Positions 48,500 to 55,353 of a stretch of 64,000 nucleotides of DNA are shown here, in pieces. The stretch is taken from the IMG/VR virus record IMGVR_UViG_3300028886_000058, positions 60,602 through 124,601 of that record. One strand, 5' to 3'. The stretch's first letter is position 1; each line of letters starts with the position of its first letter. Origin of the DNA: a virus (Duplodnaviria > Caudoviricetes). Below the pieces are notes generated by a model. The model was not told where the DNA came from, did not search any database, and saw nothing but the letters and a program-made list of their open reading frames with translations. The position numbers were made by a program, and so were the translations under genes.

Positions 48500-48886
48500 A
48501 TGCAGAAAATTATCATTTGTGGCAATCTTACTGCCGATCCGATTATTAATGAACGGGAATATGTGGTTAAAGATACGGCAGAAATTAAAAAGACAAAGGT
48601 TGCTAATTTTACTGTGGCTGTTGACAGTGGCTATGGTGAAAGGAAAACTACACAGTTCTTCAGGGTAAATGCATGGCGCGGACTTGGCGAAACTTGTGCA
48701 AAGTATCTTGAGAAGGGTCGTCAGGTTATGGTTGAAGGCGTTGTCTCTCTTAACAATTACGTTGACAAGAACAATAACCTTCGTGCTGTAATGGAAATTC
48801 GTGCAAATGAAGTACAGTTTCTTGGCAGCAAGGGCGTTGAGACTCCTGAAGAACTTCCTCCTGAAGAAGAGGAAATGCTTTATTAA
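48500..48886 (+). CDS. ssb: Single-stranded DNA-binding protein 2
   Basis: IIICGNLTADP, FTVAVD, FFRVNAW, YLEKGRQVMVEG and EVQFL motifs. Confidence 0.92.
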   Translation: MQKIIICGNLTADPIINEREYVVKDTAEIKKTKVANFTVAVDSGYGERKTTQFFRVNAWRGLGETCAKYLEKGRQVMVEGVVSLNNYVDKNNNLRAVMEIRANEVQFLGSKGVETPEELPPEEEEMLY

Positions 48887-49924: not shown

Positions 49925-50497
49925 ATGTTTATGAGTAAACCTGGATGTAAACCATATAAATGGGTTAAAGCACCAGCAGAACATCCGTATGCAACAAAGA
50001 AAGGCTTAATTCAACAACATAGACTTGTTGCAGAAACAATGGTCGATAGATACCTAAAACCAGAAGAAGTAGTACATCATATAGACGGAAACACATTAAA
50101 TAACGATGTTTCAAACTTGATGATATTCGCTACAGCAAAAGAACATAACGCTTTTCATCTTGGGGGAGCTGCTTGGAGTAATGACTTAATTATTTGGCAT
50201 TCATCAAATGTTTTACATGTAAAAAAATGTGATTATTGCGGAAAGTTATATATTCCAAAAGACTCAGCATTGTCAAAAATAGAAGAATCAAAATACTGTT
50301 CTAAAAAATGTATGGATAAATCAAAATTTATCAAGACACAAAATAAAATACCAGAAATAATTAATTTAATATATAAAAACAATGGCAACTTTTCGAAAAC
50401 AGCTAAAATCATAGGTATAACATCGACTGGACTATCAAAAATTTTAAAAACACATGGAGAAAAATATCACTCAAAAGATTATAAAAATATCTTTTAA
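49925..50497 (+). CDS. HNH homing endonuclease
   Basis: QHRLVAE...EEVVHHIDGNTLNNDVSNL...EHNAFH, then CDYC/YCSKKC Zn finger and a C-terminal HTH. Confidence 0.9.
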   Translation: MFMSKPGCKPYKWVKAPAEHPYATKKGLIQQHRLVAETMVDRYLKPEEVVHHIDGNTLNNDVSNLMIFATAKEHNAFHLGGAAWSNDLIIWHSSNVLHVKKCDYCGKLYIPKDSALSKIEESKYCSKKCMDKSKFIKTQNKIPEIINLIYKNNGNFSKTAKIIGITSTGLSKILKTHGEKYHSKDYKNIF

Positions 50498-50569
50498 TTC
50501 GCTGGTTTTGAAGCTATGGTGAGATAGGCTTCATGTAATAGGTTCGGTATGATTCCTTCCAGCGTTTGT

Positions 50570-50640
50570 CGAGGATGTAGTGTAACGGTAACACGCGTCG
50601 CTTGGGACGACGAGTAGCAGTTCGACTCTGACATCTTCGA
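50570..50640 (+). tRNA. tRNA-Pro(TGG), atypical acceptor/T-stem geometry
   Basis: CGAGGATG/CATCTTCG acceptor, GTGT/ACAC D stem, CGTCG-CTTGGGA-CGACG anticodon arm and TTCGACT T loop with a weak T stem. Confidence 0.75.
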
Positions 50641-50832
50641 CTTTAAACCGAGTGTATGGGACGAGGCTACACATTCCCATTCGAAACGCACAAAAACTCT
50701 CGCCCAGTGTAGGGGTAGGTGAACGGTAACGCGTAGCGCTACCGACACGAAGAAGAGAGTTGCTGGGTTTATATTCCTGCGGTTTGCCGGCTTTGTTATT
50801 ATTTTATGACTTACTGATAATGGAGAAAACGT

Positions 50833-51357
50833 ATGAAAACAAATTATGTTGCTTCTTGGCGTCCAGGTGCAGATAAGGTTTATAGCAAAAATATTGATGT
50901 TCAAAAGGTAGCTCAAGAAATGCTTGCTATTAAAGGTGAAAATAGTCTTGAAACAACTACTGCTGAAGAGATTGTTAATATGGCAAGAGACGAAAATACA
51001 GAGAGCCATAAAATTTTTGAGTGGGATGATTCTATAGCGGCTGAAAAATATAGAGTTACTCAAGCTCGTTACTTAATGCACGATGTGCACATTATATGGA
51101 CAAAGACTGGCAAAAAGAAAGAAAATAAAACAGTTGTTCCTGTAAGAATGTTTTATAACTTGAAAGGCGAACTTGGATATCATCCAACACCAGTTATTAT
51201 GAAGAACGATGATCTTCATAAGAAGCTTTTAATGACCGCAAGAGCTGAACTTGAAGCTTTTAAAAAGAAGTATGAAATACTTTCAGAATTAAAGCCATTA
51301 CTTGTTGAAATTGATAAAGTTATTTATGAATTAAAGATATTTGAAGAAACTGCCTAA
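50833..51357 (+). CDS. Hypothetical helical protein, partner of the RAMP-like gene
   Basis: TAEEIVNMARDENTESHKIFEWDDSIAAEKYRVTQARYL motif; ends 6 nt before the pentamer array. Confidence 0.75.
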   Translation: MKTNYVASWRPGADKVYSKNIDVQKVAQEMLAIKGENSLETTTAEEIVNMARDENTESHKIFEWDDSIAAEKYRVTQARYLMHDVHIIWTKTGKKKENKTVVPVRMFYNLKGELGYHPTPVIMKNDDLHKKLLMTARAELEAFKKKYEILSELKPLLVEIDKVIYELKIFEETA

Positions 51358-51363
51358 TAATCA

Positions 51364-51964
51364 TGCGGTTAGTACAATTAGGAGCTTATTACTTCTTTTG
51401 CATAGCTTATAATAGAATAGAAAAGGACAGCAAATAGATAAAACACTATAAAATATAATAAGCTTCTTATTGTGCTAACCGCACAGAACCTTACAATAAA
51501 ACAGAAAAGCAAACAATAGTTCCATGTAAAATACGTTAGCCTAATACAGAACACGAAAGCATATCTACCGGTCTGAATAAGGATGCAATGCATCCTGTAA
51601 GTTAATTTATGATATTATAAGTTAAATTACTATATAATATGATTTTATACCACAGTATACTATATAACATTGCATCTTTATTCAGGCTGGTAGTGATACC
51701 AGTTGTAGGTCATGACAGCAAAATATAGGATAGTTAAGAAAACCTTATGATTGGACAGGACACAATAATGTGTACCAACTATGTGGTTGGTACAATTGGA
51801 GACTTGTGAAAGTCTTTCAGCATATGACAAACTAGGACACTTTAGGCTAGAAAAACATATGACACAATAAAATACGACATAAGTCTTCAATTGTGCTAAT
51901 CGCACAACTATATTGCAATATAGCAAAACAAAGGTCAACCTAGGAAAAAACAACACATAATATT
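51364..51964 (+). ncRNA. Array of three long hairpins and six 5-nt-periodic (NNA-NN) tracts; putative guide RNA array
   Basis: Stems 51364-51391/51456-51483, 51565-51590/51668-51693 and 51782-51808/51878-51904. Eleven of the 12 non-Watson-Crick positions are G-U on the + strand. Pentamer tracts lie inside and between the hairpins. Confidence 0.85.
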
Positions 51965-51980
51965 TAAAGGAGTAAAAGAA

Positions 51981-52661
51981 ATGAAAAAGAAAGAAATCAA
52001 AGCAAACAATGAAGTAGAACTGATGAACATTCAAGCAAACATTAAGCATATGATTGTCACTGTTGAAGGTGATGGCGATCTTATTCTTAATAAAATGAAT
52101 GCTCGAAATGAACGCTGGCTTCTTGGTGGACGAGATAGCGGTGTTGAAGAACGTTCAAACGTGTGGGAAGATATCATTACGTCTATTCATTGGTATAAAC
52201 CACTTGAATGCGAAGACACTTATAAAGAATGTAATGAAGAAATGATGATGTCTCTTCTTAAGGAAAATAAACCGTGTATTTCTGCGTTTGCATTTAAGAA
52301 AAGCTTTGGAGATGCAACAGTACGGAACGAAATTGATACATATGCAACGAAGATTAATACAGCTGTTAATGTAGTTGCTGTTGGAGGACTTATTCCGATT
52401 GAATTCGGTGGTTGGAGCGTAGAAAAACGGCTGATGAGCCCGAAGAAAGGCAAGCCGCTTACTGTGCATCTTAATCATTTTCATAATTGGAGTGCTAAGA
52501 TTCAAATTGATTATATGGATCATGTATTTAGCCGTGATCAAATTCTGAATATTATCAATCTGGCTGGCTTTGGTCTTGGCATTGGAAGTGGACGAACTTC
52601 TGGATATGGGCGTTATCACATTACTAACGTAGATATGATTGAAGAAGCAGAAGCAGCATAA
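51981..52661 (+). CDS. Solo RAMP / Cas7-like RNA-binding protein
   Basis: N-terminal strand (MIVTVEGDGDLILN), PCISAFAFKKSF helix, WSAKIQIDY strand and C-terminal glycine-rich loop AGFGLGIGSGRTSGYGRY, as in RAMP RRM folds. No other cas genes or CRISPR array in the window. Confidence 0.75.
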   Translation: MKKKEIKANNEVELMNIQANIKHMIVTVEGDGDLILNKMNARNERWLLGGRDSGVEERSNVWEDIITSIHWYKPLECEDTYKECNEEMMMSLLKENKPCISAFAFKKSFGDATVRNEIDTYATKINTAVNVVAVGGLIPIEFGGWSVEKRLMSPKKGKPLTVHLNHFHNWSAKIQIDYMDHVFSRDQILNIINLAGFGLGIGSGRTSGYGRYHITNVDMIEEAEAA

Positions 52662-52710
52662 AAATAATTGATGAAAAACATCTGACAGCTCGGAAAGACG
52701 AGCATTTTAT

Positions 52711-52796
52711 CGGCTAGTGGCGCAATAGGCAGATTCGCAGGAGACTTAAAATCTCCCGGAGGTAACTCCATGTGGGTTCGAGTCCCACCTAGCCGA
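52711..52796 (+). tRNA. tRNA-Leu(TAA)
   Basis: CGGCTAG/CTAGCCG acceptor, GGAGA-CTTAAAA-TCTCC anticodon arm, long variable arm and GTGGG-TTCGAGT-CCCAC T arm. Confidence 0.9.
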
Positions 52797-52818
52797 CTTA
52801 TTTTTAGGAGGATCAAAT

Positions 52819-54854: not shown

Positions 54855-54857
54855 AAA

Positions 54858-54974
54858 TATGCGGTGGCGAAATAGGTAGACGCTTAGAACGTAAGGTGAA
54901 CATAAGGTCGAAGCTCGCATTGATCAGCGACTCCGCAGTACCATCATGTAAGGTGCAAATCCTTACCCGCATTT
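54858..54974 (+). ncRNA. tRNA-like RNA with replaced anticodon region
   Basis: ATGCGG/CCGCAT acceptor, Leu-type D arm TGGCGAAATAGGTAGACGC, 6-bp T arm GTAAGG-TGCAAAT-CCTTAC and an interior of about 64 nt with no canonical anticodon arm. Confidence 0.7.
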
Positions 54975-55156
54975 ATATGTTAGGTCTGCCGTGTCTGCGG
55001 ACATAGAGCAGTTGTGCAAGGCATGAGTGCCGAAAACATAATCCTCAAATTAATACTGTTGCTCGTCCCCGGGGCATAGAGTTACAGTAGCTTACGACAT
55101 TCCGATGCACATAGAGGATTTGGTGTCAAAACCTTTGGGAATGATTCGTGAGCATA

Positions 55157-55353
55157 GATACGGTGGCGGAATAGATTCCATCATTCCTGCGGGTAGTAGA
55201 TAAGGGCGTGGTTACCTATTATAATCACCTGAAAAGACAGGAGCGCAGGTCACGGTAAAGTAGACGCTATCAATATTCAGTTCGTGGCCCGCAGTAATGG
55301 GCGAGAGACCGAAACTGTAAGGTTATGTGGGGTGCAAATCCCCACCCGTATTA
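55157..55353 (+). ncRNA. tRNA-like RNA with insertions in the D loop and anticodon region
   Basis: GATACGG/CCGTATT acceptor, TGGCGGAATAG-[about 85 nt]-GTAGACGC and T arm GTGGGG-TGCAAAT-CCCCAC. Confidence 0.65.

What the first reader, a model, noticed from the sequence alone, without database searches (positions are those of the whole stretch)
50833..52661. Candidate RNA-guided system: solo Cas7/RAMP-like protein, partner ORF and a pentamer-coded guide array
Seen in sequence: a 600-nt non-coding block lies between a 174-aa ORF and a 226-aa ORF ending in a RAMP-type Gly loop (GFGLGIGSGRTSGYGRY). It holds six tracts of in-register 5-nt units, each a semi-constant triplet ending in A (mostly ATA/ACA/AAA/TTA/CTA) plus a variable dinucleotide. 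The tracts are T1 51402-51462 (one 1-nt slip), T2 51491-51565, T3 51597-51671, T4 51705-51769, T5 51817-51881 and T6 51905-51964. There are no CRISPR repeats, cas1/2/3/5/6 genes or nuclease in the locus. Established: Cas7-group RAMPs polymerise along RNA with a fixed per-subunit footprint. Inference: one subunit binds each pentamer, gripping the constant triplet and displaying NN for pairing, which gives a non-contiguous guide. From memory and not verified here, this resembles recently reported phage VIPR systems with GGY/NN units; this locus would be an A-rich NNA/NN variant.
Basis: partly seen in the sequence, partly recalled or inferred. Interest (0 to 1): 0.97.

Follow-up and report, generated by a model that had tools for sequence, protein, structure and literature searches.

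The report
A-type VIPR guide-RNA system in phage
A 125-kb rumen phage carries a VIPR-type RNA-guided system (a small Cas7-like protein, a partner protein and six guide RNAs made of 5-base units), but its guides use a constant A-H-A triplet instead of the published G-G-Y, which shows that the protein-RNA "grip" of this newly described guide class can be rewritten in nature.

Summary
Window 51358-51980 is a 623-nt non-coding block with strong period-5 order. It holds six tracts of A-H-A/NN pentamers between a 174-aa ORF and a 226-aa ORF.

The 226-aa protein has a Cas7-type RAMP fold. It links to the characterised Vipr of phage SUSP1 through the PHROG profile phrog_4652 and through intermediate sequences.

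All 80 IMG/VR homologue loci and 16 of 17 MAG loci carry A-phased arrays on the gene strand, and 78 of 80 carry the 174-aa partner. A sister clade with the same partner has canonical GGY/NN arrays. It keeps the H/R/(D,E)/W residues that read the guanines in SUSP1; this clade has N37/L164/S203/G204 instead.

Each guide sits in or between 22-38-bp long-range stems, whose G·U pairs put the RNA on the gene strand. The NN pairs of 181 guides match sense codon positions 1-2 (r = 0.92). Guides T2, T5 and T6 decode in frame to a primase-helicase, an SSB and a type I HsdR motif.

VIPR is already published (2026 preprints), and non-canonical cores have been flagged; "TGH/NN" may be this family read on the wrong strand. 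Verdict: a real new variant of a known kind.

The parts
50793..50821 (+). Promoter-like site (TTGTTA-17-GATAAT) ahead of the operon
   Evidence: Consensus scan only, 9 of 12 matches. Weak evidence.
50833..51357 (+). 174-aa accessory (Vap-like) gene, family phrog_15946
   Evidence: A homologue lies on the same strand next to the arrays in 78/80 A-type loci and 77/80 sister GGY loci. PHROG hit E 2.4e-18. AF2 model pLDDT 86, with no clear solved-structure match. The Atlas lead is a DUF4494-named viral cluster.
51364..51391 (+). 5' arm of long-range helix I1
   Evidence: 28-nt arm, 89% complementary to 51456-51483. Present in the MFE and the centroid folds.
51402..51462 (+). Guide tract T1 (7 units, a 1-nt slip, then 5 units), in the loop of I1
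   Evidence: Register printout.
51456..51483 (+). 3' arm of helix I1
   Evidence: The mismatches are G·U on the + strand only (read directly).
51491..51565 (+). Guide tract T2 (15-17 units), lying between helices
   Evidence: It decodes in frame to HHSKGAQGMKRAMDRAS of a PriCT_2+AAA_25 ORF in L289: 13/17 units, 29/34 bases.
51565..51590 (+). 5' arm of helix I2
   Evidence: 26 nt, 88% complementary to 51668-51693.
51597..51671 (+). Guide tract T3 (15 units), in the loop of I2
   Evidence: No target found.
51668..51693 (+). 3' arm of helix I2
51705..51769 (+). Guide tract T4 (13 units), lying between helices
   Evidence: Its only hit is one 10/13-unit metagenome match at about chance expectation.
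51782..51808 (+). 5' arm of helix I3
   Evidence: 27 nt, 78% Watson-Crick complementary to 51878-51904; the rest are G·U on the + strand. It is related to I1, with a compensatory inserted pair.
51817..51881 (+). Guide tract T5 (12-13 units), in the loop of I3
   Evidence: NNx decoding gives the SSB motif AW.GLGETC.K. The phage's own ssb at 48671 matches 9/13 units, reached by 1 of 100 shuffles. The ssb of the IMG/VR phage behind L206 matches 21/24 bases, reached by 0 of 200 shuffles.
51878..51904 (+). 3' arm of helix I3
51905..51964 (+). Guide tract T6 (12 units), after the last helix
   Evidence: It decodes to L[FL]MATGTGKTY[FL]. It matches motif I of type I restriction R subunits in 10/12 units in 67 IMG/VR loci.
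51981..52661 (+). vipr-like gene: a 226-aa single-RRM RAMP with G-loop GIGSGRTSGYGRY
   Evidence: AF2 pLDDT 82, pTM 0.76. Foldseek top hits are all Cas7-group proteins (Cmr4, Csm3), E 9e-6. VIA-align Z is 9.0-7.2 to Csm3, Cmr4, Csc2, Cas7 and Csf2. phrog_4652 hit E 1.1e-6; that PHROG is the SUSP1 Vipr family. More than 2,388 homologues, none named.
52688..52703 (+). Terminator-like hairpin plus T-run after vipr
   Evidence: Consensus scan. A 2,196-nt contig from a metatranscriptome library spans 50515-52710 and stops here, just before tRNA-Leu at 52711.

Best explanation
The locus is a VIPR (Viral Interference Programmable Repeat) system of a 125-kb rumen phage. It is one operon: a Vap-like accessory gene, then six vrRNA guides, then a vipr gene.

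Each guide is a run of about 12-15 pentamers. Each pentamer is a constant A-H-A triplet plus a free NN dinucleotide.

Inferred by homology with the solved SUSP1 complex: one Vipr protomer binds each pentamer, sequesters the constant triplet with its G-loop, thumb and RRM face, and displays NN. The displayed dinucleotides pair with a DNA strand while every third target base is skipped (NNx), so the wobble position of a codon is ignored and transcription of the bound gene is blocked.

This clade differs from published VIPRs in three ways. The RNA core is A-H-A rather than GGY, and the guanine-reading residues are replaced as a set: H17 to N37, R138 to L164, D177 to S203, W178 to G204 (SUSP1 numbering first). 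Guides are embedded in or between 22-38-bp long-range helices. These helices most likely act as conserved handles and as double-strand processing sites (host RNase III is my inference), not as a 3' pseudoknot tail or ribozymes. The gene order is vap-arrays-vipr.

Likely targets are conserved motifs of replication genes of rival mobile elements (SSB, primase-helicase) and possibly a host type I restriction R subunit.
For: Observation: period-5 A-phased tracts confined to the intergenic block.

Protein:
- Confident model.
- The top hits of two independent structure searches are Cas7-group RAMPs.
- Sequence link to the experimentally characterised SUSP1 Vipr: BLASTP E 1e-4 and hhalign E 7.7e-4 over the G-loop block.
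- phrog_4652 hit E 1.1e-6, and SUSP1 Vipr hits phrog_4652 at E 1.4e-96.
- The family profile finds 526 cluster representatives, and many of them are also hit by SUSP1 Vipr at 1e-12 to 1e-6.

Conserved cassette:
- 80/80 IMG/VR loci and 16/17 MAG loci have A-phased arrays next to the gene on its strand.
- The 174-aa partner is present in 78/80, whereas other neighbours are present in at most 20/80.
- Consensus A.82 H A.88 N N over 232 arrays and 2,872 units. Array length peaks at 12-13 units, as in SUSP1.

Protein-RNA co-variation: a sister clade with G-loop G[IVL]G[ED]WR has G-phased arrays in 79/80 loci, with consensus G.95 G.72 Y.80 N N and the same partner family. In an alignment through intermediates, the SUSP1 guanine-reading residues are kept there and replaced here (the residue roles come from 10.64898/2026.04.26.720927).

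RNA strand and structure:
- The window block folds with z = -12.3.
- Every one of the 57 distinct spacer regions among the 80 loci that were folded has 2-10 long helices. There are 158 unique helices, most often 26 bp, with a median loop of 71 nt.
- A strand-neutral scan gives 85 G·T against 17 A·C mismatches.
- In one sub-clade the stem is conserved, keeps fixed G·U pairs and has two compensatory pairs, while the loop is hypervariable.

Code: the NN frequencies of 181 guides correlate with sense codon positions 1-2 at r = 0.916, against at most 0.36 for every other frame or strand. T2, T5 and T6 match coding motifs in frame on the sense strand at 85-92% of NN bases, above the 80% threshold used in the literature.

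Expression hint: two metatranscriptome libraries from one bovine-gut sample (one study) hold the locus, and a single 2,196-nt contig covers 50515-52710.
Against: - No experiment here shows that the RNA is made as small RNAs, bound by the protein, or able to repress a target.
- The RNA-library contigs cannot show strand, ends or level, and DNA carry-over is possible.
- No guide has a perfect full-length target in IMG/VR or the JGI metagenomes. The partial matches were found with exact 8-10-unit cores, so part of each match is there by construction.
- T1, T3 and T4 have no credible target.
- The sequence link to SUSP1 Vipr is confined to the last 50 or so residues unless intermediates are used. 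The positions aligned to H17 and R138 rest on a multiple alignment of divergent proteins.
- Whole-region folding energies do not favour the gene strand (24 of 57 regions).
- The RNase III role is pure inference.
- The defining GGY core of VIPR is not present.
Confidence: 0.85

Rival explanations
1. The same system, but the RNA is made from the opposite strand. The guides would then be U-D-U/NN (the 'TGH/NN' type named in a 2026 preprint), and their NN would be antisense to codons, able to pair with mRNA or with the coding DNA strand.
For: The reverse complement of the commonest cores here (ACA, GCA and TCA, that is DCA) is exactly TGH, a non-canonical core named in 10.64898/2026.10.21.760802. 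Whole-region folding energy does not separate the strands. The contigs carry no strand information.
Against: - Helix mismatches are G·T 85 against A·C 17, which is selection for G·U pairs on the gene strand. Fixed G·U pairs are seen.
- Arrays are co-oriented with both flanking genes in 80/80 and 16/17 loci.
- In the sister clade the G-rich strand, the known RNA strand for GGY guides, is also the gene strand.
- A promoter-like and a terminator-like site bracket the operon on the + strand.
Confidence: 0.07
2. The RAMP-RNA filament targets RNA, as type III and type VII Cas7 backbones do, rather than DNA.
For: The closest solved folds are Csm3 and Cmr4 of RNA-targeting type III complexes. SUSP1 VIPR can also pair with ssRNA in vitro (10.64898/2026.04.26.720927).
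Against: The guide NN pairs have the sense of codons (r = 0.92 sense, 0.03 antisense), so a + strand guide is not complementary to mRNA. There is no Cas10, nuclease or other cas gene in the operon (Pfam, NCBIfam and PADLOC). Characterised VIPRs bind dsDNA and repress transcription.
Confidence: 0.04
3. The period-5 tracts act as DNA (iteron-like binding sites, bent DNA, or a recombination or replication element) or are a compositional by-product. On this reading the RAMP-like gene is merely adjacent.
For: The region is A/T-rich, and A-phased DNA can be structural. No RNA ends were observed.
Against: - A period of 5 is not the 10-11-bp phasing of bent DNA.
- The NN positions are hypervariable between close relatives while the flanks are conserved, and they carry codon statistics.
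- Long helices with a G·U bias indicate RNA.
- The protein's reading residues co-vary with the core.
- The association is universal across more than 170 loci.
Confidence: 0.02

Closest known systems
Type II VIPR of Escherichia phage SUSP1 (Vipr ALH47069, vap1, YNNGG vrRNAs; 10.64898/2026.04.26.720920 and 10.64898/2026.04.26.720927)
   Same: - A phage-borne, minimal two-gene locus with no CRISPR array.
- A small single-RRM RAMP with a G-loop and thumb.
- Guides of about 12 pentamers, each with 3 fixed and 2 free bases.
- The free dinucleotides behave as codon positions 1-2 (1-nt skip).
- Targets lie in genes of rival elements.
- The G-loop block is alignable, and both proteins match the PHROG profile phrog_4652.
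   Different: - The core is A-H-A rather than GGY.
- N37, L164, S203 and G204 stand in place of H17, R138, D177 and W178.
- The accessory protein belongs to another family (phrog_15946 against phrog_5926).
- Guides sit in 22-38-bp panhandles instead of carrying a 3' pseudoknot tail.
- The arrays lie between vap and vipr.
- The hosts are gut and rumen Bacillota-type bacteria.
Sister GGY/NN clade found here (G-loop G[IVL]G[ED]WR; loci L209-L288)
   Same: It shares the protein superfamily (hit by the A1 profile at 1e-7 to 1e-12), the accessory family in 77/80 loci, the habitats, and the placement of the arrays between the two genes on the gene strand.
   Different: It has the canonical core G.95 G.72 Y.80 N N and retains the H/R/E/W reading residues. 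The gene order is vipr-arrays-vap in 66 of 77 loci. No regular panhandles appeared in a quick fold of 11 loci.
Non-canonical VIPR arrays listed by the Evo-PIN/COMPASS survey (10.64898/2026.10.21.760802: GAC, CAC, WGT and TGH cores; 21 clusters, 6,318 sequences)
   Same: These are period-5 arrays with a non-GGY fixed triplet next to a Vipr-like fold. TGH/NN is the exact reverse complement of DCA/NN, the commonest cores here.
   Different: That survey gives no strand assignment, reading-residue analysis, flanking-helix architecture, partner gene or targets. ACA/AHA is not named in its text, and its Fig. S10 and tables are not held, so identity could not be checked.
Class 1 CRISPR Cas7 backbones (Csm3, Cmr4, Cas7, Csf2)
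   Same: They share the RAMP fold (Z 7-9), and their thumbs interrupt guide-target pairing periodically.
   Different: Here there is no CRISPR repeat-spacer array, no Cas5, Cas6, Cas10 or Cas11, and no adaptation genes. The footprint is 5 nt with only 2 pairing bases, instead of 6 nt with 5.

Membership tests
VIPR system | Vipr protein: a stand-alone RAMP (RRM core, glycine-rich loop, thumb) outside any CRISPR-Cas context | tested here: met
   AF2 model pLDDT 82. Cas7-group top hits in Foldseek (E 9e-6) and VIA-align (Z 9.0). The G-loop GIGSGRTSGYGR is invariant in the family. The neighbouring ORFs are small phage genes, an HNH endonuclease and an SSB.
VIPR system | Sequence homology to a characterised Vipr | tested here: met
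   phrog_4652 is the SUSP1 Vipr family (E 1.4e-96), and the window protein hits it at E 1.1e-6. hhalign E 7.7e-4. Intermediates are shared with SUSP1 Vipr. The direct link covers only the C-terminal 50 or so residues.
VIPR system | vrRNA arrays of tandem pentamers, each with 3 constrained and 2 hypervariable positions, about 9-16 units | tested here: met
   Positions 4 and 5 carry 0.05 and 0.02 bits. Array length peaks at 12-13 units.
VIPR system | Constrained triplet is GGY, or a G-containing relative (NNNGG, YNNNG, NNNNG) | tested here: not met
   The core is A.82 H A.88; G is 7%, 6% and 4% at the three positions. This is why I file it as a variant and not as a plain member.
VIPR system | Structured invariant 3' tail (a hairpin or pseudoknot in the SUSP1 clade) | tested here: inconclusive
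   No per-guide 3' tail was seen. Instead, the 5' and 3' flanks pair as 22-38-bp helices. Without RNA ends, the mature form is unknown.
VIPR system | Accessory vap gene in the locus | tested here: met
   The 174-aa partner is in 78/80 loci here and in 77/80 loci of a GGY clade. Which published vap number it corresponds to could not be checked, because the supplements are not held.
VIPR system | Gapped recognition: NN pairs with the target and 1 nt is skipped | tested here: met
   Indirect but consistent. NN against sense codon positions 1-2 gives r = 0.916. T2, T5 and T6 match conserved motifs in frame at 85-92% of NN bases. Binding itself was not tested.
VIPR system | vrRNAs are expressed and bound by Vipr; target transcription is silenced | not testable with these tools
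   The only evidence is contigs from an RNA library that cover the operon.
Class 1 CRISPR-Cas effector (type III, IV or VII Cas7) | CRISPR repeat-spacer array plus other cas genes (Cas5, Cas6, Cas10, Cas11 or Csf1) | tested here: not met
   The block has no repeat-spacer array. No cas family was found in the neighbouring ORFs. The only PADLOC rows are for the 226-aa RAMP itself, to Csm4 and Cas6, at E about 0.04. The rest of the 125-kb genome was scanned only for period-5 arrays, not for cas genes.

The most novel reading that the evidence does not exclude
The A-H-A/NN clade is a natural system orthogonal to GGY VIPRs. On this reading a four-residue switch in Vipr re-specifies which RNA triplet is gripped, so the two kinds could work side by side without cross-loading. 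Guides would be released from panhandle precursors by host RNase III. At least one guide of this phage (T6) would silence the host's type I restriction R subunit, which would make VIPR an RNA-guided anti-defence weapon as well as an inter-phage one.
Probability: 0.2. Interest if true: 0.85.

Novelty: new variant of a known kind. Interest (0 to 1): 0.62.

Why it matters
VIPR is a class of RNA-guided DNA recognition only months old, with a non-contiguous code. This locus and its more than 2,000 relatives show that the "constant" half of that code is not fixed. A whole clade of gut and rumen phages uses A-H-A instead of GGY, with a matching replacement of the guanine-reading residues.

That gives a natural experiment on how the protein reads its RNA. 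It also offers a candidate orthogonal protein-RNA pair for multiplexed programmable repression, and a different way of packaging guides (long panhandle helices).

The codon-position statistics of the guides give database-free support for wobble-skipping recognition and for DNA as the target, not mRNA. The candidate targets point to replication genes of rivals and perhaps to a host restriction enzyme.

Tried and rejected
- **Full-length exact target searches.** T5 and T6 (11 units) gave none in IMG/VR, and T6 gave none in the JGI metagenomes. A T4 9-unit core gave none in IMG/VR.
- **T4 10-unit core in metagenomes.** One hit, 10/13 units, at about chance expectation and with no recognisable protein. 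I treat it as chance.
- **Self-targets in the phage genome.** No guide exceeds shuffled guides except T5 on its own ssb, reached by 1 of 100 shuffles.
- **Convergence of guides on one rival.** In the complete 57-kb phage behind L206, only T5 matches. A T2 match is absent there.
- **T6 in bacterial genomes.** No match with 2 or fewer mismatches in 151 genomes of the order of a Ruminococcus MAG that carries a related locus, and none with 3 or fewer in 5 MAGs.
- **Cross-targeting among 80 loci.** The skip-1 rule gave only slightly more low-mismatch hits than shuffles. Two of those were low-complexity artefacts inside the vap gene. One guide of L016 matches the vipr G-loop codons, but it matches its own and foreign genes equally (16/22), so it says nothing about self versus non-self.
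- **Whole-region folding energy of the two strands.** Uninformative: 24 of 57 regions favour the gene strand.
- **The 174-aa protein.** Pfam gave only a sub-threshold MsyB row (E 0.0098, below the cut-off). NCBIfam and PADLOC gave nothing. Foldseek found no match at E 0.001 or better. VIA-align matched only generic helical hairpins, at Z 6.7 or less.
- **Rfam.** No ribozyme or other family in the block or in 11 related loci.
- **PDB by sequence.** No hit.
- **Isolated phages.** Only a weak C-terminal match in two Gordonia phages.
- **Tools and data not available.** Supplements of the VIPR and Evo-PIN papers are not held, so I could not check which published VIPR type or cluster this clade belongs to.
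Full report
**What is there.** The window is the second half of a single-contig 124,601-bp virus record. Between a 174-aa ORF (50833-51357) and a 226-aa ORF (51981-52661) lies a 623-nt block without ORFs of note. Base identity in the block is raised at lags 5, 10, 15, 20 and 25. Of 34 sliding windows in the 64-kb window that have one base at one phase in at least 90% of units, 27 lie in this block. The few others, there and in the rest of the genome, are in coding sequence.

**The protein.**
- Pfam gives only a sub-threshold RAMP hit at the C-terminus (E 0.045), and the PDB gives nothing by sequence.
- The family is large and unnamed: 2,388 hits, all from metagenomes.
- An AlphaFold model built on 36 homologues is confident (pLDDT 82, pTM 0.76).
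- Foldseek returns Cas7-group chains as its leading hits (Cmr4, Csm3, type VII Cas7, Cas7-11; best E 9e-6).
- An independent all-against-all aligner puts Csm3, Cmr4, Csc2, type I Cas7 and Csf2 on top (Z 9.0-7.2).

**The literature.** VIPR systems exist in the held literature. A Vipr RAMP polymerises on vrRNAs made of GGY/NN pentamers, one protomer per repeat. NN pairs with DNA while every third target base is skipped, and the outcome is transcriptional silencing of rival mobile elements (10.64898/2026.04.26.720920; 10.64898/2026.04.26.720927; 10.64898/2026.10.15.759431).

**The link to a characterised Vipr.** I fetched the SUSP1 locus and saw its YNNGG arrays. Its Vipr aligns with the window protein over the last strand-helix-G-loop block (E 1e-4; profile E 7.7e-4). 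SUSP1 Vipr matches the PHROG profile phrog_4652 at E 1.4e-96, and the window protein hits the same profile at E 1.1e-6. A profile of the window's family finds 526 cluster representatives in 1.8 billion proteins, and dozens of them are also found by SUSP1 Vipr at 1e-12 to 1e-6. The protein is therefore a divergent Vipr.

**The cassette is conserved.** All 80 IMG/VR loci that encode a homologue have A-phased period-5 arrays directly beside the gene on its strand, mostly upstream and in many loci also one downstream. So do 16 of 17 loci in MAGs labelled Ruminococcus, Oscillospiraceae, Blautia, Lachnospiraceae and others. The 174-aa ORF has a homologue upstream in 78 of 80 loci, whereas no other neighbour is shared by more than 20.

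With the register fixed by the two A-rich phases, 232 arrays (2,872 units) give A 82%, H (C 49, T 26, A 19, G 6), A 88%, then two positions with 0.05 and 0.02 bits of information. Arrays most often have 12-13 units.

**Protein and RNA change together.** In an alignment through intermediates, the SUSP1 residues that read the two guanines are H17, R138, D177 and W178 (roles). They correspond to N37, L164, S203 and G204 here, all invariant or nearly so in the family. R179 is kept as R205.

I then collected a sister clade whose G-loop reads G[IVL]G[ED]WR. In 79 of its 80 loci the arrays are G-phased, with consensus G 95%, G 72%, Y 80%, N, N. The same 174-aa family is present in 77 of 80 loci, usually in the order vipr-arrays-vap. 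This is the best evidence here that the protein grips the constant triplet. It also shows that the 174-aa protein is a genuine VIPR accessory protein. Its fold has no clear solved relative.

**RNA strand and architecture.** The block folds far better than shuffles (z = -12.3). It forms three 26-28-bp long-range helices that enclose T1, T3 and T5, with T2, T4 and T6 between them.

Every one of the 57 distinct spacer regions among the 80 loci that were folded shows 2-10 such helices. There are 158 unique helices, most often 26 bp, with a median loop of 71 nt. Across the whole family the stems share little primary sequence. A strand-neutral scan of inverted repeats finds 85 G·T against 17 A·C mismatches, which marks the gene strand as the RNA. 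In one sub-clade the stem is conserved, with fixed G·U pairs and two compensatory pairs, while the loop differs in sequence and length. That is the handle-and-guide pattern.

No ribozyme is present. A promoter-like and a terminator-like site bracket the operon, and tRNA genes flank it. My reading that the helices are RNase III processing sites is inference from their length.

**Expression.** Two metatranscriptome libraries from one bovine-gut sample (a single study) hold the stretch. One 2,196-nt contig covers exactly 50515-52710 and ends just before tRNA-Leu, and depth is uneven along 19.5 kb. This is a hint only: contigs show neither strand nor ends, and DNA can be present in such libraries.

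**The code and the targets.** The NN dinucleotides of 181 guides correlate with the dinucleotides at codon positions 1-2 of the phage's ORFs on the sense strand (r = 0.916). They do not correlate with any other frame or strand (at most 0.36) or with bulk dinucleotides (0.34). The sister clade shows the same, more weakly (0.645). This fits wobble-skipping recognition. Because the guides have the sense of the mRNA, it argues for pairing with the template DNA strand rather than with mRNA.

Two earlier notes of this scan, e1-5961048 and e1-5961049, proposed that T5 decodes to an SSB motif and T6 to a helicase Walker A motif. I tested both.
- **T5.** It matches the phage's own ssb in 9 of 13 units, a score reached by 1 of 100 shuffles. 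It matches the ssb of another complete rumen phage in 21 of 24 bases, reached by 0 of 200 shuffles.
- **T6.** It matches LLVMATGTGKTY of type I restriction R subunits in 10 of 12 units in 67 loci.
- **T2.** It matches a PriCT_2+AAA_25 primase-helicase ORF in 13 of 17 units.

All three matches are in frame on the sense strand. None is perfect, the cores were fixed by the search, and T1, T3 and T4 have no credible target. The target assignments are therefore leads.

**Novelty.** The class is published. A survey of October 2026 already reports 21 clusters of Vipr-associated arrays with non-GGY cores and names GAC, CAC, WGT and TGH. TGH is the reverse complement of DCA, the commonest cores here, so this family may be among them, read on the other strand. 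The figure and tables are not held.

What I find that is not in the held texts:
- the A-H-A core on the gene strand;
- the coordinated replacement of the guanine-reading residues;
- the panhandle architecture;
- the shared accessory family and the flipped gene order;
- the sense-codon statistics;
- the candidate targets.

I file it as a new variant of a known kind, with interest 0.62.

Noticed in passing
window 54855-55324: This 470-nt intergenic stretch has by far the highest depth in the metatranscriptome contigs (about 90, against 1-10 around it). Contigs skip 60-61 nt at 54884/5 to 54945/7. The stretch begins with a tRNA-like 5' half (GCGGTGGCGAAATAGGTAGACGC). Neither ARAGORN nor Rfam calls anything, and the fold z-score is only -1.7.
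   Followed up: partly
window 50570-50641 and 52711-52797; also L002:4937-5372 and L221:1995-2924: VIPR loci of both clades often sit directly beside phage tRNA genes. Here tRNA-Pro lies upstream and tRNA-Leu immediately downstream of the operon's terminator-like hairpin.
   Followed up: no
L016:3892-3946, against window 52563-52589: One guide of a related phage decodes (NNx) to AGFGLGIG, the invariant G-loop of the vipr genes themselves. It matches about 43 loci, including this window, but it matches its own gene equally well (16/22). This could be autoregulation, targeting of rivals, or coincidence.
   Followed up: partly
window 48500-48886: The phage's own ssb differs from guide T5 at two codons inside the matched motif (R for K/N, A for Q/H). 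A rival phage's ssb differs at only one base of the first 11 units. This is a possible self/non-self margin.
   Followed up: partly
Gordonia phages ODay (MW534375.1:10775-10960) and Ecliptus (OP820472.1:10770-10937), gene 19: These hypothetical proteins match the C-terminal G-loop block of the window protein (E 3e-5 and 4e-4). They may be further Vipr-like proteins in isolated actinophages.
   Followed up: no
window 49925-50497: An HNH_3 homing-endonuclease-like ORF (E 8.8e-8) lies just upstream of tRNA-Pro and the VIPR operon.
   Followed up: no
L045-L070 (human-gut IMG/VR contigs of about 80 kb): These relatives carry 7-9 guides, most with their own adjacent panhandle, plus one guide downstream of vipr. 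L019 carries at least 10 helices over 2 kb. Array size therefore varies from 2 to more than 15 guides within the clade.
   Followed up: partly
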